A stretch of DNA of 64,000 bases. It comes from Trypanosoma brucei (lineage: Eukaryota). The translations under genes and the position numbers were made by a program. The stretch spans positions 672,001 through 736,000 of the forward strand of contig CM000207.1 in the NCBI GenBank assembly GCA_000002445.1, read 5' to 3'. Within the stretch, counting starts at the first letter, position 1; the number at the start of each line of letters is the position of its first letter. The notes under the pieces are model-generated. The model ran no database searches and had not been told where the DNA came from. It worked only from the letters and a program-made list of their open reading frames with translations. Positions 40,597-58,060 of this stretch are shown one piece after another.

Positions 40597-41553
40597 ATGG
40601 CTCCAGTAGTGTGGCCGTGCGCCCTTAACCCATCAAATCACATACTGGTGCAAGAGTTGCTGCTACACGCGTCATTAGGTCGTCACCGCCATTCCCTGAG
40701 GGACAGAAAGGACTTTTTTCACCTTGCTAGGCACATTTCCTGCCTCAAAGAACCTTGCAAATACCTCGTTTCTGCGCCACCAACCTCTCGTGGACCACTG
40801 TGGGCTCCTTGGCGAAGCACAGTCCCCCGGCAAATAGTTTTCAATCGTATACTCCGTCAGTGCACCGATACTTATACGCAATCATCCCATAAAGAAGACA
40901 AAGAAGACGAGGAGGGGAGACGCGTACCAGTGTTTTATGATGATGCCATTGCTCATTTGAACAGAATAGCAGAAGAACTGGGGCCACACGGATACAAAGT
41001 AACTCTGGTCGGAGCACTGCGACGCGGGTGCCCCGTTGCTTCCCGAGCTGAGTTCCTTTTGACGTACGATGATGACGATAGAATCAGGAAACATCGTGAC
41101 AACGACACCACTGTGTCCCACAGTGTTCATTTTGAGCGAGCGATACAGGGACTAAGGGCTTCCGGATACATCAAGCATCATAGGACAAAAAGAAAGATTG
41201 ATATTCACACAAAACAGTACATAACACTTGCTTCTAGGTCCCATTCACATCCAGAAACCCTCTCCACATCACGAGAGGAAAGACAGGTTTTGTCTATTAC
41301 CTGGTCAAAACCACAACAGTTTCACACGCGGCAGCTGTTCCTCACGGGCCCGAACCCATTCGTGGTGCACCTTGTGCTGCTGGCCCATGCGAAGGGCCTG
41401 GGACTGGATCCTTGCGGGTTGTACAAATCCCAATTAGGGTTTCGGGAGTCTGTGGCACTTGAATGTGAAAGGGACATCTTCGCTGCGTTGCAGTTGCCGT
41501 ACGTTGAGCCCATTCACCGCCATGCATACTGCCGCGTTCACAACCTGTTTTGA
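40597..41553 (+). CDS. DNA polymerase X family (pol beta-like) protein, 318 aa, with non-canonical catalytic residues
   Basis: ATG start. The C-terminus (ERDIFAALQLPYVEPIHRHA) matches pol beta [28 protein letters not shown]...AHAKGLGLD matches FTGS..F...RAHALEKGF, RKIDIH matches RRIDIR (Asp256), and ALRRG matches SFRRG. The GDMD carboxylates are replaced by SRAE. Confidence 0.65.
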   Translation: MAPVVWPCALNPSNHILVQELLLHASLGRHRHSLRDRKDFFHLARHISCLKEPCKYLVSAPPTSRGPLWAPWRSTVPRQIVFNRILRQCTDTYTQSSHKEDKEDEEGRRVPVFYDDAIAHLNRIAEELGPHGYKVTLVGALRRGCPVASRAEFLLTYDDDDRIRKHRDNDTTVSHSVHFERAIQGLRASGYIKHHRTKRKIDIHTKQYITLASRSHSHPETLSTSREERQVLSITWSKPQQFHTRQLFLTGPNPFVVHLVLLAHAKGLGLDPCGLYKSQLGFRESVALECERDIFAALQLPYVEPIHRHAYCRVHNLF

Positions 41554-41815
41554 GAGCGCCCGCGCCTTCCTTTTATTTGTTCTCCATGGGATATTGCTGT
41601 TCTTTAACTTCCTAACTGTATGGTTTTCTGTCGCATGTGTCGTCACAGACGCGCATCACTTTTTATACGACTAGATATGCCGCGTTACAGAGACCTATCG
41701 ATTGCCTGATTAAGTACTCTTGCAGGTGTTGCTTTGTCTTCTCCGCACTATTACTCATTCCCTTTTTCTTTACTGATTTTTTCTGGTATGAAGGCACTTC
41801 TATACACTAAGGGTG

Positions 41816-42424
41816 ATGTCCGCACAACCGCACCTCCGCAAGCTGCGTAAGCTCAAGCGCGCCAACCCGTCTCAGGAGGAGGAGGGCGTCGCGAGGGTGC
41901 TCTTTGAATTGGAAGGCTCCCACAAGACTCTCCGCGCGCAGTTGCCCCGCTTCCATATAAACACTGTTCGCACGTCGTCGAGTCCCCGTCACAAGAAGAC
42001 AGCTATGATCATTTTGTACCCGTTGCGTTTTATCATGCTTGTACGCAAGATTCAGCGAACGCTTACGGCAGAGCTCGAGAAGCGCTTCCCCGGAAACATT
42101 GTTGTGCTTGTTGCGCAGCGCAAGATAACGAAGCGACCGAATGATGTGTACAAGCTTCAGCAGGTGCAACGTTCCCGTACGAGCGTAGCGGTGTTTGAGA
42201 ATATCTTGAATGATCTTATATATCCGTGTGACGTGGTGGGCCGCCGTTGGCGTTACCGTACGGATGGGAGTAAGCTGATGAAAGTGTTCTTGGACGCCCG
42301 TGACCGCAAGAGGGTGGAGTCGAGACTTCCCCTTCTTGCCCACGTCTACAAGTTGTTGACGCACCGAACTGTCACCTTCGGGTTCATGTGGAACCCTAAG
42401 TTGCAGCAAGTGTCCTCCCGGTAG
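41816..42424 (+). CDS. RPS7: 40S ribosomal protein S7e, copy 1
   Basis: Full-length eukaryotic S7e-like sequence (NIVVLVAQRKI..., ...VFLDARDRKRVESRL...). Track start at 41813 is GTG immediately before ATG 41816. Confidence 0.85.
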   Translation: MSAQPHLRKLRKLKRANPSQEEEGVARVLFELEGSHKTLRAQLPRFHINTVRTSSSPRHKKTAMIILYPLRFIMLVRKIQRTLTAELEKRFPGNIVVLVAQRKITKRPNDVYKLQQVQRSRTSVAVFENILNDLIYPCDVVGRRWRYRTDGSKLMKVFLDARDRKRVESRLPLLAHVYKLLTHRTVTFGFMWNPKLQQVSSR

Positions 42425-42978
42425 ATGAGTTTCGCCCAGCTACTTTGAAGGTGCCATTATCAGTTTTTTGTTTTGATTTATTTTCACTACGCTGCCATCC
42501 TCGGTTGTGTAGTGCTAGAAAATGAAATGACACATGTCAGTACTGAAACTAGTGTAAGTTACAACCTCGAAGCTGCCTGTGTTTCCATGTTAGTCACCCC
42601 TTTGACATTTTCTTACCTTTTTGCTCATTAGTATTTTATGCTGGTGATAGACGCCCACTTTGGTGGTTCCTATGTGATGCAGCGAGTGAGATGAGGTGGC
42701 ATGCTATACTTCACTTCCGTGAGCTGCGTCACCACAGGTTCACCAACCCCTTCTCCACTGCGTGAGGATCGCGTGGTAAAAGCGTTTTCCGTGTTGGTGT
42801 CTTGTAGTAGAGTCATCCGAATGTGCCTCTCGCGGATAATGTGATTTATGTTTCCCACTGTTGCAGGCGGCTGCGAGTAGTCGGGTGCATCACAGATCAG
42901 CTTAGATTTCGCACAAGATCTGAGGCCCCGGAAGGTGTTTTCAAGCCTCTTCCTTATCGTCTTGGCGCTACGTTGTGG

Positions 42979-43143
42979 TTACTCCAATCGCATACCAACC
43001 AAGGCCTGAATGCCAGGATATCGAGCTTAGGAGCGAATATCGACAAGGCCAGACAGCGTGGCGAACAGCAGGTTGCGTTAAAGGAAGAGGAGTTAAGGGA
43101 TCTGCAGGGGAGACTTGAGAGTTTGATGAGGGATTTGGAGTGA
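42979..43143 (+). pseudogene. 3' fragment of the BRAP2-like gene, last 54 codons plus stop, copy 1
   Basis: Identical to 56268-56432, the C-terminus of the full BRAP2-like gene (LLQSHTNQGLNARISSLGANIDKARQRGEQQVALKEEELRDLQGRLESLMRDLE*). The upstream ORF extension starts with GTG at 42823 and has no ATG. Confidence 0.75.
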
Positions 43144-43543
43144 TGGTTTTCGGCGTCGTCTTGTCATCCCATCCCGCCTCCCTTCCGTATCATGCTGCGT
43201 CATTCCCCTTCGCCACTTATCAACACAGTCGTGTGCACTCCTACTGTTCTCACATCAGTCAGTGCAGCTTAGTTACCTCGTTTGGCTTACTTTGACTTAA
43301 GTACCTTTTTTTGTGCTCATTGCGGTTGCTGTATGACTGCCAGCTCTCAGATGTCTGGACTTTCCATTCTCTTTATGTTGACCCTACACACCTGCCCCAC
43401 ACTGCATTTCCCCCCACCGTTCCCTGTTTGCACCTTCCTGCTGTATGGGTGGTGTAAAATACCCATTAGCATTATAGCAGTTGGTGGCTTGTTAATAACT
43501 GAAGTTCGGATTACCGTGGCGAGTAAAGGTTTCCGGTGATATT

Positions 43544-44629
43544 ATGGTCGTCAAACGCCGTGGAAATGGCCGGTTAGGCAAACCTCCGACAGATACTGGA
43601 GTGAGTGAGAACTCTACCGGTGGAACCCCACCCCCGGAGTCTGCTTCTCAACGTGGCGGGGCGAAACAAACTACGGTTGCTTCCGCGATCAAGCAGCCCG
43701 CTTCGATGCCCGACGGCTCGTTGTCGCAGGATCGACGAAAGCGCCGCCGTAGGTTATCGGTGCCAGAGGAGGTGGCCCATGCCGTTGTGGAGGGGGAAGA
43801 AGCTACAGGTGCTGTAAGGGATGAAAGACTACCCGAAAATACTCGAGTTGTTGAACCTCAATTGAATGATCATGATGGTAAAGAGAGATACCCTCTGGGC
43901 GTTGTCCAGTTCCCAGAGGAGCAGCGCCCGTGGAGGAGCGCAAGGCGTAAAGCTGGGGTAGCTGAGGGAGGTAGTGACGAGGTTAACGCCGCACAGCTTC
44001 CTCCGACGGGCAACGCTGTGCCGCAGAAACCAACTAGGCGTTTAGGTAGAGCATCTGCCCCTCCGATACCACCTGTCGGTACTGTTGAACATGATTTGCA
44101 GACAACTGGTGGAACGTGTACGAGTGCTCCTATTGCGGGTGACCGCGCTTCCCGAACGTTTCAGGCGGCGGCGAGCCCCTCCGAAGATATTAAACAAAGG
44201 CCGCATAGAATTCCATTGATAATAGATAAGGGGCGTTTCAGTAAGCAAAAAGTCGAGGCTCCTCCCGGGACCGCAACCGTGGTGCCCATGGACACTGGAG
44301 AAAACCAGGCTGGCGTTTGTGAAGCAAACTCCGCACCACCAACTTCCTGTTCCCACCGTGGCGCCCAGCGCTTGGGGCATGGCCAACCTGCTGATGGCAC
44401 AAGTGGTGCTGTTGATAGTATAGAGGAGGGGCCCGGGCGCGGAATTGAGGAAGCCTCCGTGGACGCGCGACGTAGGAGGTTTATGCAGGTGCCGGTGAGC
44501 AGAATCTCGTTGTATACACGGCTTGCCGAGGGGGGTTTGGATGCTGCCGACCGCCCATTTGTCACATGTGTGGTAAAACATGCCCAATCGTCTGTTTCCG
44601 CATGGGTATCCGGGTTCTTGTCGCCTTGA
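43544..44629 (+). CDS. Hypothetical basic, low-complexity protein, 361 aa, copy 1
   Basis: ATG start. Rich in R/K/P/S/G. Duplicated at 50031-51116 with three amino-acid differences. Confidence 0.5.
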   Translation: MVVKRRGNGRLGKPPTDTGVSENSTGGTPPPESASQRGGAKQTTVASAIKQPASMPDGSLSQDRRKRRRRLSVPEEVAHAVVEGEEATGAVRDERLPENTRVVEPQLNDHDGKERYPLGVVQFPEEQRPWRSARRKAGVAEGGSDEVNAAQLPPTGNAVPQKPTRRLGRASAPPIPPVGTVEHDLQTTGGTCTSAPIAGDRASRTFQAAASPSEDIKQRPHRIPLIIDKGRFSKQKVEAPPGTATVVPMDTGENQAGVCEANSAPPTSCSHRGAQRLGHGQPADGTSGAVDSIEEGPGRGIEEASVDARRRRFMQVPVSRISLYTRLAEGGLDAADRPFVTCVVKHAQSSVSAWVSGFLSP

Positions 44630-45920
44630 TGTGAGTGATGCTTTTATTTTTTCTTTGGAGGTGTGCGAATTTCTGTTTCTTGAAACAGATACTGACCGAT
44701 GGAGGGTCGTTGTTTTTCTTAGTTGGCTGTGCTGCTGGTGAAAGCACATTGTGAATGGGATAAATGGGTGTGAGGGTTTTCTTTCTAAATTTCTGCTGGC
44801 GGTTTATCCCTCATATTGTTTGCCTGAACTGGAGTGAATACAGTTCTCTTTTTGATACGGCTTCCTTTGCCGGTTGAACGGGGACACGCCTTCTTATTGG
44901 TTCTGTCGTGTACGCTTTTTCAGTGTAGTATTGGAGGGACTAACAGTGTGAGGAGCGGTGCCGAACCCAGTTGAACGCCTGTCATTGTGTGTGATGCCTG
45001 TACAACCGTGTTTCGGTTGCTTTGATTGCTCGATTGGCTGTGCGGCAGCCGTTGTGAAGGTGATGTAATCCCTTCAGTTGATGTGGCTTCTGCAGGTTGT
45101 TTCTTCCGGTGCGCGGGAACGGCAGACATAAGTGGTATATGTTTGGCTAGATACCGGCACTACTCTATAGGTTTACTTTTACTCTACTTTTTTTTTGTGT
45201 GTGTGCTTCCACTCACTTTGGTGTTCTGTTGCTGAGGCGGTGTTGCAACTGTGTCAGTGAACAGTACGCCATCTACGGATAGCACTACCGGCAGTCGGTT
45301 GCCGCTGGCGGTTGCTCATGAGGAGGTTTGTATTTACCTGCCGGTGGGTTGGCTTCTTGATGGGAGGTTAACAGGCGTGGGTGCCTTGTATGGTATCAGA
45401 TATTTCTCTAGGATGAAGGTTATGCACCATTACCATACCGTGGAGTTCGCCGTAATAAGGTGAAGTCATTTGAGCAGTAGTTCCTTTTGCTGTCATCTCT
45501 TGGTATATTATTGCCAAAAATACCTGTGCTATTGCTGCTACGTTGTAACCATGTCCTCTTTTGTGTTCAGTAACGGGGGTAGTGACTGTGACGACATATT
45601 CCGAGGCCGCATCGAGTTGTGTTTGACATTTGCCCTCCGTGTCGTAGCTTATACAACCTTCGTGGGTGGTGGTGCACATGTTTGTGTGCCCTGCAACGTC
45701 GCCGTTCACTACTTCAATTTTTTTGTACCCACTTGCGGATGAAACTTTTAGTCGGTATGTTCCCTTCTGGAATGACAGAGGGGAAGGACTGGTGATGTGC
45801 CGGTCGTCCCTCATTGTTGGTCTTTTCTCTTCTTGAACACGTAAATGCAAGCAGTGTCATAGCTATATTTTGGGGTGAAGAAAGGGCGAGGTTCACCTTC
45901 ATTTGGTTGGATTGCTGGGT

Positions 45921-46535
45921 ATGTCTACATCCCGCATTACGTTGTCGTCACAGCACGATGCACTGATAATTGTGGATATGCAGAATGATTTCGTGCTTCC
46001 CGACGGTGCGCTCTCCGTAACTGGTGCCACTGAGATCATACCGATAATTAATCGCGTTGTCGGAGATCACCAGTTTCGTGCCGTTGTCGCATCGATGGAC
46101 TGGCACCCTCCTGGACACATGTCGTTCCGAAATGAAGATGGGACAGGGGGTCCATGGCCTCCCCATTGCGTACGGTCAACGACTGGTGCCCAACTTCATT
46201 CAGAGATGAAACAAGGAGAGATAACCCACCTTATTCACAAGGCGACATCTCTGGATTCTGAAAGTTACTCCGCCTTCAGCGATGACAGCGGTAAGACAAC
46301 CGGTCTGGCTGCAATGCTGCGCGCCATGGACGTGAGAAGGGTTTTTATGTGTGGCGTAGCTTCCGATTACTGTGTATACTTTACCTCACTACACGCTATC
46401 CAAGAGGAATTTACCGTTGTTGTGTTGGAGGACGCCGTTCGCCCCGTCGACCCTGTTGCCATGGAGAAGAAGCGAGCACACCTGGAAAAGGAGGGCGTAA
46501 TCTTTGCGCGAAGCACAGACCTTTCCAGCTTCTGA
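45921..46535 (+). CDS. PNC1: Nicotinamidase/pyrazinamidase (isochorismatase family), copy 1
   Basis: IIVDMQNDF catalytic Asp motif, CGVASDYCV nucleophile Cys motif, and length about 204 aa. Track start at 45903 is TTG; first ATG at 45921. Confidence 0.8.
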   Translation: MSTSRITLSSQHDALIIVDMQNDFVLPDGALSVTGATEIIPIINRVVGDHQFRAVVASMDWHPPGHMSFRNEDGTGGPWPPHCVRSTTGAQLHSEMKQGEITHLIHKATSLDSESYSAFSDDSGKTTGLAAMLRAMDVRRVFMCGVASDYCVYFTSLHAIQEEFTVVVLEDAVRPVDPVAMEKKRAHLEKEGVIFARSTDLSSF

Positions 46536-47806
46536 GTCGGAGGTGGCTTCTTCTAGTGGTTCCTCCAGAAGTGTGGGACCGCGTAGGTGTGCCTAAGTGA
46601 TGAACGACAGGATGGAATGTAATGTGCTAATAATATGGGGCTGGGTGGCGGTGGTGGTGGTGAGCATGTCAAGGCGTACAGTGAGGGCTAGGTATATGCA
46701 ATCACCACCGTTATCATTGATTCTCAAGTGCATATTCCCAATAGGGCCACACATGCGCTCATGTACGGTCTCCTAAGGTGTATGTATGTGTGCGTTAGGT
46801 GTGTATGAAGCGAGCAAAGAAGAGAGGGGGGTCGAAATGGATGGCTCGGCAAACGGGTCTGCCAACTATTTTCTTCCCTCTCCCTTGGTTCTATTGCCTT
46901 GGTCGTTTTGCCATTTGAAAGACCTCTTCTTTGTTTTTTCTTCCATTGCACCGCGCCCGTCCCCGACGCCACCGGGTTCCCATTTTTTTTGTAACTGAAA
47001 AGAGGGACGGTACTGACACTTGGGGCGAATAACGGACACTAAGCGAACCTCACCCCTGAGTCTTCCCCACAAGGTGTTGGTTGCCGCGCAACAGAAGAAA
47101 TGGCGGGGTAGTAAGTGATGTGCGCGCGTACATGCACGATCCTGCGCGGCATCCGAAATTAATGGGCGGCGAGCTTTTGCTTACGGTTGGCCCTTGACAT
47201 GTGCGTTCAAATGGTGATGCCCTTCCATCATTTGCCGCAGTAACTTTTTTCCAGTGCAAACTCACAAGACATGCATTTGGAACATATTGGCGCTGGGGAT
47301 GTCAGGTGCCAACAGGGGTACTCTGTTTAATTGACGGTCAATAGCAGACAGCGTTTGTGTGATCTCCCTTTACCAGGCTGCAGATCCGTAGGGGTTGCCG
47401 AGTGGGAAGCCATCCGTTACGTTCCTGTCCCATTCCTCTCTTCCTCACACATGATGGTCGCAGCCGCCTGTAGGTATAATGTATTACCTATGGGTACAGT
47501 GAGCATTTGTTTGGAATAAAATGCCTTTTGCGACCATACAACAACCTACGCGTAATCGGCTACACTTATGCCTGAGCTGGTCGTGCGTAGGTCGCGTGTC
47601 TTGAAGGATGGTGCCGGGTTGACATGGGCTTCGGACTCTCATGAAGAGTGTCGATTCTTGTGGTATGCGCTGGTGCTATTTATATTGGAGTGATGTCTAC
47701 TGTGTGGAATCACAGCATGATGGCTTTGTGTGACGATTACCCGCCATTGGATTGAAATGTACTGCTTTGAACAGGTTGTGTGGCTGTGCCCACTGTCATT
47801 AATCGT

Positions 47807-48040
47807 ATTTACACGCGGCAGCTGTTCTTCACGGGCCCGAACCCATTCGTGATGCACCTTGTGCTGCTAACCCATGCGAAGGGCCTGGGACTGGATCCTT
47901 GAGGGTTGTACAAATCCCAATTAGGGTTTCGGGAGTCTGTGGCACTTGAATGTGAAAGGGACATCTTCGCTGCGTTGCAGTTGCCGTACGTTGAGCCCAT
48001 TCACCGCCATGCATACTGCCGCGTTCACAACCTGTTTTGA
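47807..48040 (+). pseudogene. 3' fragment of the Pol X-like gene (last about 78 codons) at the unit 1/unit 2 junction; carries an in-frame TGA
   Basis: Matches 41320-41553. Where copy 1 reads ggatccttgcgggttg, copy 2 reads ggatccttgagggttg near 47880, introducing a stop. There is no ATG. Confidence 0.75.
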
Positions 48041-48302
48041 GAGCGCCCGCGCCTTCCTTTTATTTGTTCTCCATGGGATATTGCTGTTCTTTAACTTCCT
48101 AACTGTATGGTTTTCTGTCGCATGTGTCGTCACAGACGCGCATCATTTTTTATACGACTAGATATGCCGCGTTACAGAGACCTATCGATTGCCTGATTAA
48201 GTACTCTTGCAGGTGTTGCTTTGTCTTCTCCGCACTATTACTCATTCCCTTTTTCTTTACTGATTTTTTCTGGTATGAAGGCACTTCTATACACTAAGGG
48301 TG

Positions 48303-48911
48303 ATGTCCGCACAACCGCACCTCCGCAAGCTGCGTAAGCTCAAGCGCGCCAACCCGTCTCAGGAGGAGGAGAGCGTCGCGAGGGTGCTCTTTGAATTGGA
48401 AGGCTCCCACAAGACTCTCCGCGCGCAGTTGCCCCGCTTCCATATAAACACTGTTCGCACGTCGTCGAGTCCCCGTCACAAGAAGACAGCTATGATCATT
48501 TTGTACCCGTTGCGTTTTATCATGCTTGTACGCAAGATTCAGCGAACGCTTACGGCAGAGCTCGAGAAGCGCTTCCCCGGAAACATTGTTGTGCTTGTTG
48601 CGCAGCGCAAGATAACGAAGCGACCGAATGATGTGTACAAGCTTCAGCAGGTGCAACGTTCCCGTACGAGCGTAGCGGTGTTTGAGAATATCTTGAATGA
48701 TCTTATATATCCGTGTGACGTGGTGGGCCGCCGTTGGCGTTACCGTACGGATGGGAGTAAGCTGATGAAAGTGTTCTTGGACGCCCGTGACCGCAAGAGG
48801 GTGGAGTCGAGACTTCCCCTTCTTGCCCACGTCTACAAGTTGTTGACGCACCGAACTGTCACCTTCGGGTTCATGTGGAACCCTAAGTTGCAGCAAGTGT
48901 CCTCCCGGTAG
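48303..48911 (+). CDS. RPS7: 40S ribosomal protein S7e, copy 2
   Basis: Identical to copy 1 except one codon (EEEGVARV versus EEESVARV). Confidence 0.85.
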   Translation: MSAQPHLRKLRKLKRANPSQEEESVARVLFELEGSHKTLRAQLPRFHINTVRTSSSPRHKKTAMIILYPLRFIMLVRKIQRTLTAELEKRFPGNIVVLVAQRKITKRPNDVYKLQQVQRSRTSVAVFENILNDLIYPCDVVGRRWRYRTDGSKLMKVFLDARDRKRVESRLPLLAHVYKLLTHRTVTFGFMWNPKLQQVSSR

Positions 48912-49465
48912 ATGAGTTTCGCCCAGCTACTTTGAAGGTGCCATTATCAGTTTTTTGTTTTGATTTATTTTCACTACGCTGCCATCCTCGGTTGTGTAGT
49001 GCTAGAAAATGAAATGACGCATGTCAGTACTGAAACTAGTGTAAGTTACAACCTCGAAGCTGCCTGTGTTTCCATGTTAGTCACCCCTTTGACATTTTCT
49101 TACCTTTTTGCTCATTAGTATTTTATGCTGGTGATAGACGCCCACTTTGGTGGTTCCTATGTGATGCAGCGAGTGAGATGAGGTGGCATGCTATACTTCA
49201 CTTCCGTGAGCTGCGTCACCACAGGTTCACCAACCCCTTCTCCACTGCGTGAGGATCGCGTGGTAAAAGCGTTTTCCGTGTTGGTGTCTTGTAGTAGAGT
49301 CATCCGAATGTGCCTCTCGCGGATAATGTGATTTATGTTTCCCACTGTTGCAGGCGGCTGCGAGTAGTCGGGTGCATCACAGATCAGCTTAGATTTCGCA
49401 CAAGATCTGAGGCCCCGGAAGGTGTTTTCAAGCCTCTTCCTTATCGTCTTGGCGCTACGTTGTGG

Positions 49466-49630
49466 TTACTCCAATCGCATACCAACCAAGGCCTGAATGC
49501 CAGGATATCGAGCTTAGGAGCGAATATCGACAAGGCCAGACAGCGTGGCGAACAGCAGGTTGCGTTAAAGGAAGAGGAGTTAAGGGATCTGCAGGGGAGA
49601 CTTGAGAGTTTGATGAGGGATTTGGAGTGA
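49466..49630 (+). pseudogene. 3' fragment of the BRAP2-like gene, copy 2
   Basis: Same as 42979-43143, offset by 6,487 bp. Confidence 0.75.
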
Positions 49631-50030
49631 TGTTTTTCGGCGTCGTCTTGTCATCCCATCCCGCCTCCCTTCCGTATCATGCTGCGTCATTCCCCTTCGC
49701 CACTTATCAACACAGTCGTGTGCACTCCTACTGTTCTCACATCAGTCAGTGCAGCTTAGTTACCTCGTTTGGCTTACTTTGACTTAAGTACCTTTTTTTG
49801 TGCTCATTGCGGTTGCTGTATGACTGCCAGCTCTCAGATGTCTGGACTTTCCATTCTCTTTATGTTGACCCTACACACCTGCCCCACACTGCATTTCCCC
49901 CCACCGTTCCCTGTTTGCACCTTCCTGCTGTATGGGTGGTGTAAAATACCCATTAGCATTATAGCAGTTGGTGGCTTGTTAATAACTGAAGTTCGGATTA
50001 CCGTGGCGAGTAAAGGTTTCCGGTGATATT

Positions 50031-51116
50031 ATGGTCGTCAAACGCCGTGGAAATGGCCGGTTAGGCAAACCTCCGACAGATACTGGAGTGAGTGAGAACT
50101 CTACCGGTGGAACCCCACCCCCGGAGTCTGCTTCTCAACGTGGCGGGGCGAAACAAACTACGGTTGCTTCCGCGATCAAGCAGCCCGCTTCGATGCCCGA
50201 CGGCTCGTTGTCGCAGGATCGACGAAAGCGCCGCCGTAGGTTATCGGTGCCAGAGGAGGTGGCCCATGCCGTTGTGGAGGGGGAAGAAGCTACAGGTGCT
50301 GTAAGGGATGAAAGACTACCCGAAAATACTCAAGTTGTTGAACCTCAATTGAATGATCATGATGGTAAAGAGAGATACCCTCTGGGCGTTGTCCAGTTCC
50401 CAGAGGAGCAGCGCCCGTGGAGGAGCGCAAGGCGTAAAGCTGGGGTAGCTGAGGGAGGTAGTGACGAGGTTAACGCCGCACAGCTTCCTCCGACGGGCAA
50501 CGCTGTGCCGCAGAAACCAACTAGGCGTTTAGGTAGAGCATCTGCCCCTCCGATACCACCTGTCAGTACTGTTGAACATGATTTGCAGACAACTGGTGGA
50601 ACGTGTACGAGTGCTCCTATTGCGGGTGACCGCGCTTCCCGAACGTTTCAGGCGGCGGCGAGCCCCTCCGAAGATATTAAACAAAGGCCGCATAGAATTC
50701 CATTGATAATAGATAAGGGGCGTTTCAGTAAGCAAAAAGTCGAGGCTCCTCCCGGGACCGCAACCGTGGTGCCCATGGACACTGGAGAAAACCAGACTGG
50801 CGTTTGTGAAGCAAACTCCGCACCACCAACTTCCTGTTCCCACCGTGGCGCCCAGCGCTTGGGGCATGGCCAACCTGCTGATGGCACAAGTGGTGCTGTT
50901 GATAGTATAGAGGAGGGGCCCGGGCGCGGAATTGAGGAAGCCTCCGTGGACGCGCGACGTAGGAGGTTTATGCAGGTGCCGGTGAGCAGAATCTCGTTGT
51001 ATACACGGCTTGCCGAGGGGGGTTTGGATGCTGCCGACCGCCCATTTGTCACATGTGTGGTAAAACATGCCCAATCGTCTGTTTCCGCCTGGGTATCCGG
51101 GTTCTTGTCGCCTTGA
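50031..51116 (+). CDS. Hypothetical basic low-complexity protein, 361 aa, copy 2
   Basis: Offset by 6,487 bp from copy 1. Differs by R/Q, G/S and A/T substitutions. Confidence 0.5.
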   Translation: MVVKRRGNGRLGKPPTDTGVSENSTGGTPPPESASQRGGAKQTTVASAIKQPASMPDGSLSQDRRKRRRRLSVPEEVAHAVVEGEEATGAVRDERLPENTQVVEPQLNDHDGKERYPLGVVQFPEEQRPWRSARRKAGVAEGGSDEVNAAQLPPTGNAVPQKPTRRLGRASAPPIPPVSTVEHDLQTTGGTCTSAPIAGDRASRTFQAAASPSEDIKQRPHRIPLIIDKGRFSKQKVEAPPGTATVVPMDTGENQTGVCEANSAPPTSCSHRGAQRLGHGQPADGTSGAVDSIEEGPGRGIEEASVDARRRRFMQVPVSRISLYTRLAEGGLDAADRPFVTCVVKHAQSSVSAWVSGFLSP

Positions 51117-52407
51117 TGTGAGTGATGCTTTTATTTTTTCTTTGGAGGTGTGCGAATTTCTGTTTCTTGAAACAGATACTGACCGATGGAGGGTCGTTGT
51201 TTTTCTTAGTTGGCTGTGCTGCTGGTGAAAGCACATTGTGAATGGGATAAATGGGTGTGAGGGTTTTCTTTCTAAATTTCTGCTGGCGGTTTATCCCTCA
51301 TATTGTTTGCCTGAACTGGAGTGAATACAGTTCTCTTTTTGATACGGCTTTCTTTGCCGGTTGAACGGGGACACGCCTTCTTATTGGTTCTGTCGTGTAC
51401 GCTTTTTCAGTGTAGTATTGGAGGGACTAACAGTGTGAGGAGCGGTGCCGAACCCAGTTGAACGCCTGTCATTGTGTGTGATGCCTGTACAACCGTGTTT
51501 CGGTTGCTTTGATTGCTCGATTGGCTGTGCGGCAGCCGTTGTGAAGGTGATGTAATCCCTTCAGTTGATGTGGCTTCTGCAGGTTGTTTCTTCCGGTGCG
51601 CGGGAACGGCAGACATAAGTGGTATATGTTTGGCTAGATACCGGCACTACTCTATAGGTTTACTTTTACTCTACTTTTTTTTTGTGTGTGTGCTTCCACT
51701 CACTTTGGTGTTCTGTTGCTGAGGCGGTGTTGCAACTGTGTCAGTGAACAGTACGCCATCTACGGATAGCACTACCGGCAGTCGGTTGCCGCTGGCGGTT
51801 GCTCATGAGGAGGTTTGTATTTACCTGCCGGTGGGTTGGCTTCTTGATGGGAGGTTAACAGGCGTGGGTGCCTTGTATGGTATCAGATATTTCTCTAGGA
51901 TGAAGGTTATGCACCATTACCATACCGTGGAGTTCGCCGTAATAAGGTGAAGTCATTTGAGCAGTAGTTCCTTTTGCTGTCATCTCTTGGTATATTATTG
52001 CCAAAAATACCTGTGCTATTGCTGCTACGTTGTAACCATGTCCTCTTTTGTGTTCAGTAACGGGGGTAGTGACTGTGACGACATATTCCGAGGCCGCATC
52101 CAGTTGTGTTTGACATTTGCCCTCCGTGTCGTAGCTTATACAACCTTCGTGGGTGGTGGTGCACATGTTTGTGTGCCCTGCAACGTCGCCGTTCACTACT
52201 TCAATTTTTTTGTACCCACTTGCGGATGAAACTTTTAGTCGGTATGTTCCCTTCTGGAATGACAGAGGGGAAGGACTGGTGATGTGCCGGTCGTCCCTCA
52301 TTGTTGGTCTTTTCTCTTCTTGAACACGTAAATGCAAGCAGTGTCATAGCTATATTTTGGGGTGAAGAAAGGGCGAGGTTCACCTTCATTTGGTTGGATT
52401 GCTGGGT

Positions 52408-53022
52408 ATGTCTACATCCCGCATTACGTTGTCGTCACAGCACGATGCACTGATAATTGTGGATATGCAGAATGATTTCGTGCTTCCCGACGGTGCGCTC
52501 TCCGTAACTGGTGCCACTGAGATCATACCGATAATTAATCGCGTTGTCGGAGATCACCAGTTTCGTGCCGTTGTCGCATCGATGGACTGGCACCCTCCTG
52601 GACACATGTCGTTCCGAAATGAAGATGGGACAGGGGGTCCATGGCCTCCCCATTGCGTACGGTCAACGACTGGTGCCCAACTTCATTCAGAGATGAAACA
52701 AGGAGAGATAACCCACCTTATTCACAAGGCGACATCTCTGGATTCTGAAAGTTACTCCGCCTTCAGCGATGACAGCGGTAAGACAACCGGTCTGGCTGCA
52801 ATGCTGCGCGCCATGGACGTGAGAAGGGTTTTTATGTGTGGCGTAGCTTCCGATTACTGTGTATACTTTACCTCACTACACGCTATCCAAGAGGAATTTA
52901 CCGTTGTTGTGTTGGAGGACGCCGTTCGCCCCGTCGACCCTGTTGCCATGGAGAAGAAGCGAGCACACCTGGAAAAGGAGGGCGTAATCTTTGCGCGAAG
53001 CACAGACCTTTCCAGCTTCTGA
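52408..53022 (+). CDS. PNC1: Nicotinamidase/pyrazinamidase, copy 2
   Basis: Protein identical to copy 1. Confidence 0.8.
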   Translation: MSTSRITLSSQHDALIIVDMQNDFVLPDGALSVTGATEIIPIINRVVGDHQFRAVVASMDWHPPGHMSFRNEDGTGGPWPPHCVRSTTGAQLHSEMKQGEITHLIHKATSLDSESYSAFSDDSGKTTGLAAMLRAMDVRRVFMCGVASDYCVYFTSLHAIQEEFTVVVLEDAVRPVDPVAMEKKRAHLEKEGVIFARSTDLSSF

Positions 53023-54293
53023 GTCGGAGGTGGCTTCTTCTAGTGGTTCCTCCAGAAGTGTGGGACCGCGTAGGTGTGCCTAAGTGATGAACGACAGGAT
53101 GGAATGTAATGTGCTAATAATATGGGGCTGGGTGGCGGTGGTGGTGGTGAGCATGTCAAGGCGTACAGTGAGGGCTAGGTATATGCAATCGCCACCGTTA
53201 TCATTGATTCTCAAGTGCATATTCCCAATAGGGCCACACATGTGCTCATGTACGGTCTCCTAAGGTGTATGTATGTGTGCGTTAGGTGTGTATGAAGCGA
53301 GCAAAGAAGAGAGGGGGGTCGAAATGGATGGCTCGGCAAACGGGTCTGCCAACTATTTTCTTCCCTCTCCCTTGGTTCTATTGCCTTGGTCGTTTTGCCA
53401 TTTGAAAGACCTCTTCTTTGTTTTTTCTTCCATTGCACCGCACCCGTCCCCGACGCCACCGGGTTCCCATTTTTTTTGTAACTGAAAAGAGGGACGGTAC
53501 TGACACTTGGGGCGAATAACGGACACTAAGCGAACCTCACCCCTGAGTCTTCCCCACAAGGTGTTGGTTGCCGCGCAACAGAAGAAATGGCGGGGTAGTA
53601 AGTGATGTGCGCGCGTACATGCACGATCCTGCGCGGCATCCGAAATTAATGGGCGGCGAGCTTTTGCTTACGGTTGGCCCTTGACATGTGCGTTCAAATG
53701 GTGATGCCCTTCCATCATTTGCCGCAGTAACTTTTTTCCAGTGCAAACTCACAAGACATGCATTTGGAACATATTGGCGCTGGGGATGTCAGGTGCCAAC
53801 AGGGGTACTCTGTTTAATTGACGGTCAATAGCAGACAGCGTTTGTGTGATCTCCCTTTACCAGGCTGCAGATCCGTAGGGGTTGCCGAGTGGGAAGCCAT
53901 CCGTTACGTTCCTGTCCCATTCCTCTCTTCCTCACACATGATGGTCGCAGCCGCCTGTAGGTATAATGTATTACCTATGGGTACAGTGAGCATTTGTTTG
54001 GAATAAAATGCCTTTTGCGACCATACAACAACCTACGCGTAATCGGCTACACTTATGCCTGAGCTGGTCGTGCGTAGGTCGCGTGTCTTGAAGGATGGTG
54101 CCGGGTTGACATGGGCTTCGGACTCTCATGAAGAGTGTCGATTCTTGTGGTATGCGCTGGTGCTATTTATATTGGAGTGATGTCTACTGTGTGGAATCAC
54201 AGCATGATGGCTTTGTGTGACGATTACCCGCCATTGGATTGAAATGTACTGCTTTGAACAGGTTGTGTGGCTGTGCCCACTGTCATTAATCGT

Positions 54294-54527
54294 ATTTACA
54301 CGCGGCAGCTGTTCTTCACGGGCCCGAACCCATTCGTGATGCACCTTGTGCTGCTAACCCATGCGAAGGGCCTGGGACTGGATCCTTGCGGGTTGTACAA
54401 ATCCCAATTAGGGTTTCGGGAGTCTGTGGCACTTGAATGTGAAAGGGACATCTTCGCTGCGTTGCAGTTGCCGTACGTTGAGCCCATTCACCGCCATGCA
54501 TACTGCCGCGTTCACAACCTGTTTTGA
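54294..54527 (+). pseudogene. 3' fragment of the Pol X-like gene, copy 3; reading frame intact but GTG-initiated only
   Basis: Track ORF 54267-54527 starts with GTG; the C-terminal 78 codons are identical to the Pol X-like gene. Confidence 0.7.
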
Positions 54528-54752
54528 GAGCGCCCGCGCCTTCCTTTTATTTGTTCTCCATGGGATATTGCTGTTCTTTAACTTCCTAACTGTATGGTTT
54601 TCTGTCGCATGTGTCGTCACAGACGCGCATCATTTTTTATACGACTAGATATGCCGCGTTACAGAGACCTATCGATTGCCTGATTAAGTACTCTTGCAGG
54701 TGTTGCTTTGTCTTCTCCGCACTATTACTCATTCCCTTTTTCTTTACTGATT
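54294..54752. repeat. Partial third repeat unit, 5' part (Pol X 3' fragment plus downstream 225 bp)
   Basis: Identical to 41320-41778 and 47807-48265. Sequence diverges from the RPS7-containing units at 54753. Confidence 0.85.
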
Positions 54753-54776
54753 GGTGTTGATAGTATATTTTTTGAA

Positions 54777-56432
54777 ATGAGTGTCACCGGCTTCGGTGAT
54801 GTTGTTGTATCTTTTGATGCGGAAGGTGTTGTAGTTGTTGGGCTAACTTATGAGCGTTCAAATGCGACACAGTGGTTGCTGCTCCCGGAAATTCCCGTTG
54901 AAGTCCCTCTTGTTAAGGTTCTTCGTGATCTTGAGGAATCTGGTGCTTCTCGACAACGGTCACCTGGTCGAATGAGGGGAGAAGGAGTTAAAGGAGATGT
55001 TTGTTTGCCAGACAGTGAAGTTGGATCACCTTGTAACGCGTGCGGTGTTAATAACATTCGTAGTGATTGTTGCATTTCTGTTGCTCGTGTGGGGCACATT
55101 CCGGAACGAAATCGCGCATACTGTTTGCTTTTGGAGTTGTCATCTTCTTCTGATGCCGCTGATGTGCAAAGAGATCTGCTGCACGTCGAGTGGGCTAATG
55201 GGCCCTTGTGTGCACCGCAGTTTTTGCAGTCCGTCGGCCGTATAATGAGGGTGGAGCATGAAGGGCGTGATGCCGCATGCGTGAGCAACTGCGCGGGTTG
55301 GCGGACACAAGTGTCTACGGACAATGCGGAAGATGTTTGCCTACGTGTCCTTTGCAGTGTGTCGTGCGGTGTTGATGGGGCGTCATCTCGGCGGCAGTTG
55401 GAAAGTGAAAAGGAGATATCTAGCGTTGCGCTCCGGAGAGACGCTCCTCTAGCACCGATAGAAGAGTTTTGCCCCATCTGCCGTGAGGAAATCGCATCTG
55501 GAAGAACGTGCGTTGTTACTATGTGCACCCACGTCTTCCACCTTGTTTGCCTCATGAAGCACTTAGAAGATGTTAGTTCATATTGCCCTCTTTGTCGTTT
55601 TTCGATGTCGTCTCTTGAAACTAAGTGCAACGCGTGTGGAACGTGCCAGGACTTGTGGAGTTGTTTAGTTTGCGGTTGGGTGGGATGTGGTAAGGGGCGG
55701 CACGGACATAGCATACGGCACTTCCACAGCACAGGGCACTCGTGTGCCGTGCAGAATAGCACTTCACGCATATGGAACTATCGCGCCAGCACATTTCTCC
55801 ACCACCAACTAGCTATGGAATTGGGTTACGAAGACGACGCAAGGGCGGAGCGTGCTGCAGCGCAGGAGGAGGGCAGGTCGGCCCTCTCTGTTCGTCACAG
55901 CGGGGAAAAACCCAGGGTCAGTGCTTCATCCTATTGGCGCAGTAGGTGGTGGTGGGACGAAAAGGAAGAGGAAGCTGCACAAGAGCTCAATGGCGACTAT
56001 GTGCGGGAGTATTATCTCCGTGTAATGGAGGAACTCATGCAGGAACAGGCGGACTATTTTGAGGGGCGTACAATGGTGGAGGGAGAGAATGCGGCTGTAC
56101 CCATCGGGACATGGAAGAAGCTGCAAAGCGCAGAACGGCGTCAACGGCGTAGTCTTGCTTCGAGGTACATTGCTGGTTTGCGCCGTATTGCGCTACACAG
56201 CCAGATGGCCGTCAACAATTTTGTGAAGCAGGAGGTCTTATGGAGGGATTCGTTGCGTGAAGAGTTATTACTCCAATCGCATACCAACCAAGGCCTGAAT
56301 GCCAGGATATCGAGCTTAGGAGCGAATATCGACAAGGCCAGACAGCGTGGCGAACAGCAGGTTGCGTTAAAGGAAGAGGAGTTAAGGGATCTGCAGGGGA
56401 GACTTGAGAGTTTGATGAGGGATTTGGAGTGA
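54777..56432 (+). CDS. BRAP2/ETP1-like E3 ligase: RING-H2 + ZnF-UBP + C-terminal coiled coil
   Basis: RING-H2 region: CPICREEIASGRTCVVTMCTHVFHLVCLMKHLEDVSSYCPLCRF. ZnF-UBP region: CNACGTCQDLWSCLVCGWVGCGKGRHGHSIRHFHSTGHSCAV. Track start at 54708 is TTG inside the shared repeat; the first ATG is at 54777, after the repeat boundary. Confidence 0.75.
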   Translation: MSVTGFGDVVVSFDAEGVVVVGLTYERSNATQWLLLPEIPVEVPLVKVLRDLEESGASRQRSPGRMRGEGVKGDVCLPDSEVGSPCNACGVNNIRSDCCISVARVGHIPERNRAYCLLLELSSSSDAADVQRDLLHVEWANGPLCAPQFLQSVGRIMRVEHEGRDAACVSNCAGWRTQVSTDNAEDVCLRVLCSVSCGVDGASSRRQLESEKEISSVALRRDAPLAPIEEFCPICREEIASGRTCVVTMCTHVFHLVCLMKHLEDVSSYCPLCRFSMSSLETKCNACGTCQDLWSCLVCGWVGCGKGRHGHSIRHFHSTGHSCAVQNSTSRIWNYRASTFLHHQLAMELGYEDDARAERAAAQEEGRSALSVRHSGEKPRVSASSYWRSRWWWDEKEEEAAQELNGDYVREYYLRVMEELMQEQADYFEGRTMVEGENAAVPIGTWKKLQSAERRQRRSLASRYIAGLRRIALHSQMAVNNFVKQEVLWRDSLREELLLQSHTNQGLNARISSLGANIDKARQRGEQQVALKEEELRDLQGRLESLMRDLE

Positions 56433-56978
56433 TGTTTTTCGGCGTCGTCTTGTCATCCCATCCCGCCCCCCTTCCGTATCATGCTGCGTCATTCCCCTTC
56501 GCCACTTATCAACACAGTCGTGTGCACTCCTACTGTTCTCACATCAGTCAGTGCAGCTTAGTTACCTCGTTTGGCTTACTTTGACTTAAGTACCTTTTTT
56601 TGTGCTCATTGCGGTTGCTGTATGACTGCCAGCTCTCAGATGTCTGGACTTTCCATTCTCTTTATGTTGACCCTACACACCTGCCCCACACTGCATTTCC
56701 CCCCACCGCTCCCTGTTTGCACCTTCCTGCTGTATGGGTGGTGTAAAATACCCATTAGCATTATAGCAGTTGGTGGCTTGTTAATAACTGAAGTTCGGAT
56801 TACCGTGGCGAGTAAAGGTTTCCGGTGATATTATGGTCGTCAAACGCCGTGGAAATGGCCGGTTAGGCAAACCTCCGACAGATACTGGAGTGAGTGAGAA
56901 CTCTACCGGTGGAACCCCACCCCCGGAGTCTGCTTCTCAACGTGGCGGGGCGAAACAAACTACGGTTGCTTCCGCGAT
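56268..56978. repeat. Partial third repeat unit, 3' part (BRAP2 3' end through the first 49 codons of the 361-aa gene)
   Basis: Identical to 42979-43689 and 49466-50176. Homology ends at 56978. Confidence 0.85.
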
Positions 56979-57018
56979 GGAGGTGCTTCCGTTTGTTTTC
57001 CTTTGGTGCCTTGATTAA
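56833..57018 (+). pseudogene. Truncated third copy of the 361-aa gene (first 49 codons, then unrelated sequence and stop)
   Basis: MVVKRRGNGRLGKPPTDTGVSENSTGGTPPPESASQRGGAKQTTVASA is identical to copies 1 and 2; it then diverges (MEVLPFVFLWCLD*). Confidence 0.7.
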
Positions 57019-58060
57019 GTGGGAACAGAAGGGCACATGCTGGTCGTCAGTATTTTTTTGTGAGGCCAAATTAAATTTAGTGTTTTTGTTCAGTGCTTTT
57101 TTTTTTGACTTGGAAGGTATTCAAAATTATGCTGGGGAGGTGCTTTTGTCCCTCTGCAGGAAAGGAGGGTGCTGACGCTTTTTGTATATTATGCGCTTGC
57201 TTGCTTTTGCCCACGTGGCTTGTGTTGGGTGAATAAATTGAATATCAATATTTGTGGCGTAATATCAACGTTTATGTGCCCTTTTTTATTGTTTTGTGAA
57301 GGAGCATATGACTCATTCCCCCCTCGCGTCTCCCCACCGTTGCATTGCCTTTCCAGTGTGTCGGTGACTGAAGCGGAGGTTTTGTCCTGTCTTTTATAAA
57401 GTTATTCCTGGTGAGGACTGGGTGGATTTCCGGTGCCTGTGTGCAATACCTATTTTCTGATGCGGGGTAGTGGATGAGGTTTCCACGCCAGCGGGCAGTT
57501 TGACTTTTCTTTTGCAATGTGTATCGATTGGTTATTGATGTGTTTTGCCTTGGTTGTTTTCTAGTTCTGAGAGCGTTATGCATTTTCCATACTTTTCGTT
57601 TCCTGAGGTGTGCACTTGCTGACCTATTGTGGCAACATGCGAAGCATCATGTTGAAAAGGTGTCATCGTTGAGCGTCGTATTTATTCGGTTCCCACCTGG
57701 AGCAAGATGACGAGTGCCCTCGTGGACTTACGGTGTGACAGAAGTGGTTGTTGCCGCGTGAGAAATACTTTGTGTGGAAATTGGTGTGAAGGTTGCCCTC
57801 GTAATGCTTAAATTGGCGTTTTGGGAAGATGGTAGTATCAATTTGTTTGTGTTATCTGTTAATGCCATTTTTTCTTTTTTGTGCGTCAAAGGTATCCGTT
57901 AGCGTCCCAACTGCCCCTTTTTTGTTAGCGATTTCCCCGCAGCAGGCTGTATGAAGATGGTTGGAAGCAACTGTTCCCCGTTCGTTGTTTTGGTCAACCT
58001 CTGCTCCTTTTATTTTTCTTCTTTAAACAAGTTGTTACGTGGTAGAATACGTGCACTGAT

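What the first reader, a model, noticed from the sequence alone, without database searches (positions are those of the whole stretch)
41320..56978. 6,487-bp tandem array (2 full + 1 partial unit) whose junctions cut through two genes
RPS7, the 361-aa gene and the nicotinamidase gene each recur at exactly +6,487 bp with near-perfect identity. The unit boundary (41320, 47807, 54294) falls inside the Pol X-like CDS, 78 codons before its stop. Each downstream unit therefore begins with a Pol X 3' pseudogene fragment. The array ends at 56978 inside the third copy of the 361-aa gene, leaving a 61-aa truncated ORF. This is a segmental duplication with gene-internal breakpoints rather than simple gene amplification, and the near-identity suggests a recent event or ongoing gene conversion. 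Collapsed or expanded copy number in an assembly is also possible.
Basis: seen in the sequence. Interest (0 to 1): 0.7.

Follow-up and report, generated by a model that had tools for sequence, protein, structure and literature searches.

The report
Known trypanosome three-gene tandem duplication
This is a real but already catalogued tandem duplication of a 6.5-kb three-gene block (ribosomal protein S7, a hypothetical protein, nicotinamidase) on Trypanosoma brucei chromosome 9, and it sits on an older, brucei-specific gene-order rearrangement that left three gene fragments behind.

Summary
The repeat is real. Window 41321-47807 and 47808-54294 are two ungapped 6,487-bp units that differ at 19 sites (99.71% identity).

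The "third partial unit" is not collinear. It has 458 bp of shared sequence (A), then 1,515 bp of unique sequence holding an intact RING/zf-UBP (BRAP2-like) gene where the 1,200-bp RPS7 cassette would be, then 711 bp of shared sequence (C). Three genes are cut, not two:
- Pol-beta-thumb gene: 3' fragments, two copies.
- BRAP2-like gene: 3' fragments, two copies.
- 361-aa gene: one 5' fragment.

The window matches T. b. brucei chromosome 9. Jackson et al. 2010 (PMC2854126, Table 1a) already list this S7/hypothetical/nicotinamidase unit as two copies in T. b. brucei and one in T. b. gambiense.

T. cruzi, T. theileri, T. vivax and (partly) T. congolense keep the order PolX-S7-S7-BRAP2-X-Nic. The brucei order is therefore derived, most simply by block duplication followed by differential deletions.

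The gambiense single-unit assembly already carries all four junctions, so the unit gain is a later event, most likely homologous exchange between the A repeats.

Paralogous copies cluster by strain, which shows ongoing gene conversion.

Verdict: ordinary genome dynamics, low novelty.

The parts
40597..41553 (+). Intact 318-aa Pol-beta-thumb-domain (PolX-like) gene. Its last 233 nt are the start of repeat segment A.
   Evidence: ORF. Pfam PF14791 DNA_pol_B_thumb, E = 4.5e-13. Orthologues in the same position in T. cruzi and T. theileri.
41321..41778 (+). Segment A, copy 1 (458 bp): PolX 3' end (41321-41553) plus 225 nt of intergenic sequence ending in a polypyrimidine tract. The native copy.
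   Evidence: Differs from A3 at 6 sites.
41779..42978 (+). Segment B, copy 1 (1,200 bp): RPS7 cassette. The CDS is 41816-42424 (202 aa), with a 37-nt leader and a 554-nt 3' flank.
   Evidence: Pfam PF01251 Ribosomal_S7e, E = 5.6e-60. Boundaries.
42979..43689 (+). Segment C, copy 1 (711 bp): BRAP2-like 3' pseudogene fragment (42979-43143, 54 codons plus stop), 400 nt of intergenic sequence, and the first 146 nt of the 361-aa gene.
   Evidence: tblastn of BRAP2 aa 498-551, 100% identity. Translation. Self-BLAST.
43690..47807 (+). Segment D, copy 1 (4,118 bp): the rest of the 361-aa gene (whole CDS 43544-44629), the nicotinamidase gene (45921-46535) and a 1,272-nt tail.
   Evidence: (PF00857 Isochorismatase, E = 1.2e-23). 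The C terminus of the 361-aa protein is conserved with the positional orthologues in T. cruzi, T. theileri, T. vivax and T. congolense.
47808..48265 (+). Segment A, copy 2: PolX 3' pseudogene fragment (47808-48040) with a premature stop (TGC>TGA at 47902), plus the 225-nt intergenic sequence.
48266..49465 (+). Segment B, copy 2: second RPS7 gene (CDS 48303-48911), with one amino-acid difference (G/S) from copy 1.
49466..50176 (+). Segment C, copy 2: second BRAP2-like 3' fragment (49466-49630), intergenic sequence and the start of the second 361-aa gene.
50177..54294 (+). Segment D, copy 2: the rest of the second 361-aa gene (whole CDS 50031-51116), the second nicotinamidase gene (52408-53022) and the tail.
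54295..54752 (+). Segment A, copy 3: PolX 3' pseudogene fragment (54295-54527) plus intergenic sequence. Here it supplies the upstream region of the BRAP2-like gene.
   Evidence: Differs from A2 at 1 site.
54753..56267 (+). Segment B' (1,515 bp, single copy): body of the intact 551-aa RING + zf-UBP (BRAP2-like) gene. The ATG is at 54777 and the CDS runs to 56432, inside C3.
   Evidence: Pfam PF02148 zf-UBP (E = 9.3e-17) and PF13639 zf-RING_2 (E = 9.6e-09). Orthologues named BRCA1-associated protein in T. grayi, T. theileri and others.
56268..56978 (+). Segment C, copy 3: the functional 3' end of the BRAP2-like gene, intergenic sequence, and a 5' fragment of the 361-aa gene. The right end of the array.
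   Evidence: Differs from C1 at 3 sites and from C2 at 2.
56833..57018 (+). Truncated 61-aa ORF: the first 48 residues of the 361-aa protein followed by 13 unrelated residues.
56979..58060 (+). Unique 'down' sequence between the array and the 1,314-aa P-loop protein gene (58061-62005). Presumed remainder of the ancestral nicotinamidase-to-next-gene spacer.
   Evidence: No self-match. The next gene is orthologous to the gene after the nicotinamidase in the outgroups. Which spacer this sequence descends from is inferred.

Best explanation
The locus has the form up-A-B-C-D-A-B-C-D-A-B'-C-down, and it formed in two layers.

Layer 1 (older, specific to the T. brucei group): the ancestral order PolX-S7-S7-BRAP2-X-Nic-next gene was changed to PolX-S7-[BRAP2 3' fragment]-X-Nic-[PolX 3' fragment]-BRAP2-[X 5' fragment]-next gene. 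The most economical route has two stages.
- First, a block running from PolX codon 242 rightwards was duplicated.
- Then non-homologous deletions removed the redundant copy of each gene. The second S7 and most of BRAP2 were lost from the first copy. Both S7 genes, most of X and the nicotinamidase gene were lost from the second copy.
- This left three gene relics and two pairs of direct repeats: A (458 bp) and C (711 bp).

Layer 2 (recent, polymorphic): unequal homologous exchange between the downstream A repeat of one chromatid or homologue and the upstream A repeat of the other adds or removes one B-C-D-A unit (6,487 bp: S7, X and Nic). This gives two units here and in T. equiperdum, and one unit in the T. 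b. gambiense assembly.

The repeated segments are kept nearly identical within each strain by gene conversion and unequal exchange. Because trypanosome genes are transcribed polycistronically, the practical effect is on gene dosage: two copies each of S7, X and nicotinamidase.

Shown: the anatomy, the outgroup gene order, the shared junctions and the strain-wise clustering of paralogues.

Inferred: the order and number of the old events, the A-A exchange, and the dosage effect.
For: Anatomy and sharp junctions:
-.

Gene identities and fragments:
-.

Ancestral order PolX-S7-S7-BRAP2-X-(MFS)-Nic-large gene:
- T. theileri, T. cruzi and the T. vivax long-read contig.
- In T. congolense IL3000 the last 133 residues of the full-length BRAP2 orthologue lie directly upstream of X and Nic.

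The junctions predate the copy-number change:
- The same A/B/C/D/B' segments, in the same order and each matched over its full length, are found in T. b. gambiense DAL972 (one unit) and T. equiperdum PacBio (two units).
- Short-read contigs from other isolates break exactly at the C-left and C|D boundaries.

A-A exchange:
- In T. equiperdum the middle A copy has the pseudo-copy state at column 64 and the native-copy state at column 398. That is the chimera expected from an exchange between A repeats.
- In the window the middle A is of pseudo-type through column 340, which is compatible with an exchange in the last 119 bp.

Concerted evolution:
- All three C copies in the window share 8 states that differ from all five C copies in equiperdum and gambiense.
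- The B and D copies also cluster by strain.

Relaxed constraint on the relics:
- The PolX fragments carry amino-acid changes and one premature stop, while the intact PolX C terminus is identical in all three strains.

Literature:
- Jackson et al. 2010 (PMC2854126) Table 1a lists Tbg972.9.1930-1950 with three genes and two copies in T. b. brucei.
- Its distances are 0.0016, 0.0037 and 0. These equal the 1/609, 4/1086 and 0 differences seen here.
Against: - No intermediate arrangement (a fully duplicated block) was found in any genome, so the number and order of the old events (one duplication plus three deletions, or a duplicative insertion plus two deletions) is reconstruction, not observation.
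- None of the four junctions shows clear microhomology that would name a repair pathway. There is only a repeated GCTTCCG motif beside the C|down junction.
- The chimeric-A evidence rests on one informative site on each side.
- DAL972's single unit could be a collapsed assembly. The authors themselves warn that assembled repeat numbers can be arbitrary.
- Only the 3' part of the T. congolense locus was available.
- No expression or read-depth data were available to test the dosage effect.
Confidence: 0.72

Rival explanations
1. A single recent tandem duplication whose own breakpoints cut PolX and the 361-aa gene: one event made 2 + 0.4 units.
For: Near-identical units and sharp boundaries inside two coding sequences.
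Against: - The third unit is not collinear: 1,515 bp of unique BRAP2 sequence stands where the RPS7 cassette would be.
- BRAP2 3' fragments lie inside units 1 and 2.
- The one-unit DAL972 assembly already has the PolX, BRAP2 and X fragments at the same positions.
- The outgroup gene order differs.
Confidence: 0.05
2. An assembly artefact: allelic variants or a mis-joined repeat were assembled as two tandem units, and the true copy number is one (or is much higher and collapsed).
For: The units differ by only 0.29%, which is similar to allelic heterozygosity. Jackson et al. 2010 caution that assembled repeat numbers can be arbitrary. DAL972 shows one unit.
Against: - An independent PacBio assembly of T. 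equiperdum has exactly the same 2 + partial structure.
- Short-read contigs from further isolates break at the predicted segment boundaries.
- The A-B'-C composite and the relics are present in every assembly, so the underlying architecture is not an artefact.
Confidence: 0.08
3. The RPS7 cassette (B) was inserted into, or converted over, copies of the BRAP2 gene, for example by retroposition of an S7 mRNA or by ectopic conversion. On this view B was not left behind by deletions.
For: B replaces B' almost exactly between a point just upstream of the start codon and a point 54 codons before the BRAP2 stop. A and C flank both B and B'.
Against: - In all outgroups S7 lies directly downstream of PolX, so the A-B junction is native.
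- B has no spliced-leader sequence at its 5' end, no poly(A) at its 3' end and no target-site duplication.
- B carries 554 nt of non-coding 3' flank.
Confidence: 0.05
4. The two-unit state is ancestral to T. brucei sensu lato, and gambiense lost one unit by A-A (or unit-unit) exchange. This is the same mechanism run in the opposite direction.
For: Two units occur in two divergent haplotypes, TREU927-like and equiperdum. The equiperdum and gambiense haplotypes are almost identical yet differ in unit number.
Against: No position-specific variants are shared between the window and equiperdum units. The data therefore fit independent gains, or homogenisation after a single gain, equally well. Direction cannot be decided here.
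Confidence: 0.4

Closest known systems
Species-specific segmental duplications of T. brucei catalogued by Jackson et al. 2010 (PLoS Negl Trop Dis 4:e658, Table 1a, locus Tbg972.9.1930-1950)
   Same: The same three genes (ribosomal protein S7, hypothetical protein, nicotinamidase), the same chromosome 9, two copies in T. b. brucei against one in T. b. gambiense, and identical paralogue distances.
   Different: The table gives a unit length of 6,350 bp; 6,487 bp was measured here. The passages and table read here do not mention the PolX, BRAP2 and X fragments, the composite third unit, or the change of gene order relative to other trypanosomes. The whole paper and its supplements were not read.
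Copy-number change by non-allelic homologous recombination between flanking low-copy repeats (as in human genomic disorders and segmental duplications)
   Same: Direct repeats (A, 458 bp, over 98% identical) flank the block that is gained or lost. There is a chimeric repeat at the new junction and copy number is polymorphic.
   Different: The repeats here are much shorter than typical human low-copy repeats. The organism is a largely clonal diploid protist, so the exchange may be mitotic (sister chromatid) rather than meiotic. This was not tested.
Tandem-duplication/random-loss (TDRL) model of gene-order change, best known from animal mitochondrial genomes
   Same: The derived gene order is explained by duplication of a contiguous block followed by loss of one copy of each gene. 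Pseudogene relics sit where the lost copies were.
   Different: This is a nuclear, polycistronic locus. The relics are sharp-edged truncations rather than decayed full copies. The surviving repeats then served as substrates for a further amplification.
Concerted evolution of trypanosome tandem gene arrays (Jackson 2007, BMC Evol Biol 7:54)
   Same: Duplicates within a genome are more alike than orthologous positions between strains. Unequal crossing-over and gene conversion are the invoked mechanisms.
   Different: Homogenisation here also involves non-functional fragments and the functional 3' end of a different, single-copy gene (segment C3). It is not limited to whole gene copies.

Membership tests
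Tandem segmental duplication (multi-gene unit) | Head-to-tail copies of one unit at constant period with high identity, far beyond chance | tested here: met
   6,487-bp period, 19 substitutions and no indel.
Tandem segmental duplication (multi-gene unit) | The last, partial unit is a collinear truncation of the unit | tested here: not met
   Only 458 bp and 711 bp are shared. They are separated by 1,515 bp of unique sequence that stands where the 1,200-bp RPS7 segment would be.
NAHR-mediated copy-number variant | Direct repeats flank the variable block in the low-copy haplotype | tested here: met
   DAL972 has up-A-B-C-D-A-B'-C-down, with A copies on both sides of B-C-D.
NAHR-mediated copy-number variant | Copy number differs between individuals or strains, with identical outer junctions | tested here: met
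   One unit in DAL972 and two units in the window and in T. equiperdum PacBio, and in the literature. Caveat: DAL972 could be collapsed.
NAHR-mediated copy-number variant | The repeat at the new junction is a chimera of the two parental repeats | tested here: inconclusive
   eq_A2 is of pseudo-type at column 64 and native type at column 398, but there is only one informative site on each side. The window's A2 is uninformative after column 340.
Duplication followed by differential loss (TDRL-type gene-order change) | The ancestral order is established from several outgroups | tested here: met
   T. cruzi, T. theileri and T. vivax give the full order; T. congolense gives the BRAP2 3' end, X and Nic.
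Duplication followed by differential loss (TDRL-type gene-order change) | Relics of the lost gene copies lie at the predicted positions and in the same orientation | tested here: met
   The PolX 3', BRAP2 3' and X 5' fragments are all on the + strand. No relic of the second S7 copy or of an MFS gene was found.
Duplication followed by differential loss (TDRL-type gene-order change) | An intermediate with the fully duplicated block is observed in some lineage | not tested
   No such genome was among those retrievable. It would need a wider sample of Trypanozoon and close relatives.
Concerted evolution by gene conversion | Paralogues cluster by genome rather than by position, although the duplication predates the split | tested here: met
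   At 8 sites all three window C copies differ from all five equiperdum and gambiense C copies. The junctions are shared by all strains.
Retroposed gene copy | A spliced-leader remnant at the 5' end, a poly(A) tail at the 3' end and target-site duplications | tested here: not met
   No spliced-leader match within 3 mismatches in the window (the query was a spliced-leader sequence recalled from memory). No poly(A) at 42978. No duplicated flanks.

The most novel reading that the evidence does not exclude
The locus would be a fully preserved nuclear example of gene-order change by block duplication and differential loss, specific to the T. brucei group. All three truncation relics are still readable. 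The rearrangement cut the S7 gene count from the ancestral tandem pair to one. The later A-A exchange that doubled the 6.5-kb unit would then have been retained because it restores S7 dosage in a genome with no gene-specific promoters. As by-products, the BRAP2-like gene now uses the upstream processing region that formerly served S7, and a truncated 61-aa X ORF keeps its splice-acceptor region.
Probability: 0.3. Interest if true: 0.35.

Novelty: already known. Interest (0 to 1): 0.22.

Why it matters
- For annotation, three short ORFs or fragments (47808-48040 and 54295-54527; 42979-43143 and 49466-49630; 56833-57018) should be labelled as gene relics, not genes. The 106-aa ORFs at 42823-43143 and 49310-49630 are chimeric read-throughs.
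- For population genomics, S7, X and nicotinamidase copy number at this locus is a variable marker. Read mapping over segments A and C will be ambiguous.
- For evolution, it is a tidy worked example of how a trypanosome polycistron can be reordered without inversion, and of how the leftover repeats seed further copy-number change and gene conversion.
- None of this challenges current understanding.

Tried and rejected
- Exact-sequence look-ups of the window's 361-aa, BRAP2 and first-copy S7 proteins found nothing. The second-copy S7 and homologue-derived look-ups did work.
- Non-coding homology between the brucei spacers (D tail, 'down', the A intergenic part, the B 3' flank) and the T. congolense, T. 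vivax, T. cruzi and T. theileri loci gave no informative matches. The native neighbours of the D tail and of 'down' therefore could not be shown.
- I tested whether the sequence upstream of BRAP2 in the outgroups is homologous to that upstream of S7, which would have explained the A|B' junction by homologous exchange. Only the S7 coding sequences and very short flanks are repeated there, so the idea was rejected.
- Retroposition of S7 was rejected.
- Extra relics (a second S7, an MFS gene) were sought by tblastn and none was found.
- No tRNA genes, Rfam families or short tandem repeats lie in the array.
- A T. congolense S7/PolX contig could not be retrieved, so the 5' half of that species' locus is unknown.

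Full report
**Observation.** Self-BLAST of the window gives one long diagonal, 41320-48265 against 47808-54752 (6,946 bp, 99.7%). It also gives three short matches: 41320-41778 = 54295-54752, and 42979-43689 = 49466-50176 = 56268-56978. Ungapped comparison at offset 6,487 starting at 41321 gives 19 substitutions and no indel over 6,487 bp (99.71%). Base 41320 does not match 47807 or 54294, so the homology starts at 41321. Two full units are therefore confirmed.

The third "partial unit" is not collinear. After 458 shared bases (segment A), 1,515 bp of unique sequence (B', 54753-56267) stands where the 1,200-bp segment B (41779-42978) would be. The 711-bp segment C then follows, and the similarity stops sharply at 56978. 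The locus therefore reads up-A-B-C-D-A-B-C-D-A-B'-C-down. The third start of the 361-aa gene lies at +6,802 from the second, not +6,487.

**Gene content.** Pfam and ORF analysis give the following genes.
- 40597-41553: a 318-aa protein with a DNA polymerase beta thumb domain.
- 41816-42424 and 48303-48911: ribosomal protein S7e.
- 43544-44629 and 50031-51116: a 361-aa protein with no Pfam family (called X here).
- 45921-46535 and 52408-53022: an isochorismatase-family nicotinamidase.
- 54777-56432: a 551-aa RING plus zf-UBP protein, whose orthologues are named BRCA1-associated protein.

Three genes are cut at repeat boundaries.
- The last 77 codons of the PolX-like gene recur at 47808-48040 and 54295-54527. 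These copies carry amino-acid changes, and the middle copy has a premature stop.
- The last 54 codons plus stop of the BRAP2-like gene recur, 100% identical, at 42979-43143 and 49466-49630.
- The first 48 codons of X recur at 56833 and run on into a 61-aa ORF.

The 106-aa ORFs at 42823-43143 and 49310-49630 are read-throughs into the BRAP2 fragment. tblastn found no other relics.

**Source and prior knowledge.** The BRAP2-like, S7 and nicotinamidase proteins are identical or nearly identical to Trypanosoma brucei-group proteins. Jackson et al. 2010 (PMC2854126), Table 1a, list locus Tbg972.9.1930-1950 on chromosome 9 as a three-gene repeat unit (ribosomal protein S7, hypothetical protein, nicotinamidase). 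It is present twice in T. b. brucei and once in T. b. gambiense, with paralogue distances of 0.0016, 0.0037 and 0. These equal the 1/609, 4/1086 and 0 differences found here. The window is therefore almost certainly T. b. brucei TREU927 chromosome 9, and the duplication is already catalogued. A search for the locus identifiers found no other paper.

**Other assemblies.** The T. equiperdum PacBio chromosome (GCA_003543875.1) has the same up-A-B-C-D-A-B-C-D-A-B'-C-down structure. T. b. gambiense DAL972 has up-A-B-C-D-A-B'-C-down. In both, every segment matches over its full length and in the same order. Short-read contigs from T. equiperdum OVI and two Logan assemblies end or begin at the B|C, C-left and C|D boundaries. 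The architecture is therefore real and shared. The unit number varies: 2, 2 and 1. The caveat is that DAL972 could be collapsed, and the authors themselves warn that assembled repeat numbers can be arbitrary.

**Ancestral order.** T. theileri and T. cruzi have dymeclin, a ~700-aa gene, PolX, S7, S7, BRAP2, X, (MFS in T. theileri), nicotinamidase and a ~1,400-aa gene. A T. vivax long-read contig has the same order, and a second T. vivax contig shows BRAP2, X, Nic and the large gene. In T. congolense IL3000, a 4.5-kb contig begins with the exact last 133 residues of the full-length BRAP2 orthologue TCIL3000_9_1280, followed by X and the nicotinamidase. That is more BRAP2 sequence than the 54-codon brucei relic. 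The brucei arrangement, with BRAP2 behind X-Nic and one S7 per unit, is therefore derived and specific to the T. brucei group.

**Mechanism, layer 1 (inferred).** The native junctions are up-A, A-B (PolX to S7), B'-C and C-D. The non-native junctions are D|A, B|C, A|B' and C|down. The simplest history starts with duplication of a block beginning at PolX codon 242. This was either a tandem duplication or a duplicative insertion downstream of the nicotinamidase gene. Deletions then removed the redundant genes:
- the second S7 and most of BRAP2 from the first copy;
- both S7 genes from the second copy, ending 24 nt before the BRAP2 start codon;
- X from codon 49 onwards, together with the nicotinamidase gene, from the second copy.

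Each gene survives intact exactly once, and a relic marks each cut. The junctions show no useful microhomology; there is only a repeated GCTTCCG motif at C|down. In the outgroups only the S7 coding sequences are repeated. The cuts therefore look non-homologous. Retroposition of S7 is excluded: there is no spliced-leader remnant, no poly(A) tail and no target-site duplication.

**Mechanism, layer 2.** In the one-unit form, two A repeats flank B-C-D. Unequal exchange between the downstream A of one chromatid and the upstream A of the other yields exactly the two-unit form seen here. Exchange between C repeats would instead duplicate BRAP2, which is not seen. In T. equiperdum the middle A copy has the pseudo-copy state near its 5' end and the native-copy state near its 3' end, which is the expected chimera. 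This rests on one informative site on each side. In the window the middle A is of pseudo-type to column 340, which leaves 119 bp for the exchange.

**Concerted evolution.** At 8 sites all three C copies in the window share one state, and all five C copies in equiperdum and gambiense share the other. The B and D copies also group by strain. The junctions are shared, so the repeats predate the strain split. Variants must therefore have spread between paralogues 6.5-13 kb apart by conversion or repeated unequal exchange. In contrast, the window's two PolX relics carry six transitions that are absent from the native copy, mostly in the first 64 bp.

**Consequences (inferred).**
- S7, X and the nicotinamidase gene are doubled in dosage.
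- No other locus encoding this exact S7 protein turned up in the collection.
- The BRAP2-like gene now sits behind the polypyrimidine tract that also precedes S7.
- The X relic retains its upstream region and could be expressed as a 61-aa product.

**Verdict.** The array itself is already published, and the layered history appears to be an ordinary example of known processes.

Noticed in passing
window 20776-22335 (+), within an ORF-poor stretch at about 16600-23400: A 519-aa ORF has a strong reverse-transcriptase domain (PF00078, E = 4.8e-43). It lies in a region with few long ORFs and locally negative GC skew. This is probably a degenerate ingi-type non-LTR retrotransposon inserted in the polycistron.
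   Followed up: partly
window 23983-24351 and 26820-27188: A 369-bp direct repeat (99.2% identity) brackets a 2.8-kb block that holds a 165-aa ORF and a 373-aa WD40 gene (25688-26809). The second copy starts 10 nt after the WD40 stop codon. It may be another small duplication remnant or a substrate for unequal exchange.
   Followed up: partly
window 43544-44629 and 50031-51116; L002 12197-13009; L003 12084-12917; L007 2413-3324; L012 812-1798: The 361-aa hypothetical protein evolves fast. Only its last 45-150 residues align with the positional orthologues of other trypanosomes (270-328 aa), and it matches no Pfam family.
   Followed up: partly
L009 (T. equiperdum OVI scaffold CZPT02001821.1) 5904-10615: In this short-read scaffold the X-Nic segment starts exactly at the C|D boundary, directly after an unrelated DEAD-box helicase gene. 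The locus contains runs of N. This is most likely a scaffolding mis-join at the repeat, not a second genomic location.
   Followed up: partly
L002 8159-9679, L003 8123-9727, L013 9994-11566: In T. theileri, T. cruzi and T. vivax the two adjacent S7 genes are 95-99.5% identical. The identity is confined to the coding sequence plus a few to about 90 flanking bases, which indicates gene conversion limited to the CDS in those species.
   Followed up: no
window 63313-63952: An AT-rich tail of the window (GC 0.38 in 62001-64000) carries several short T-rich tandem repeats.
   Followed up: no
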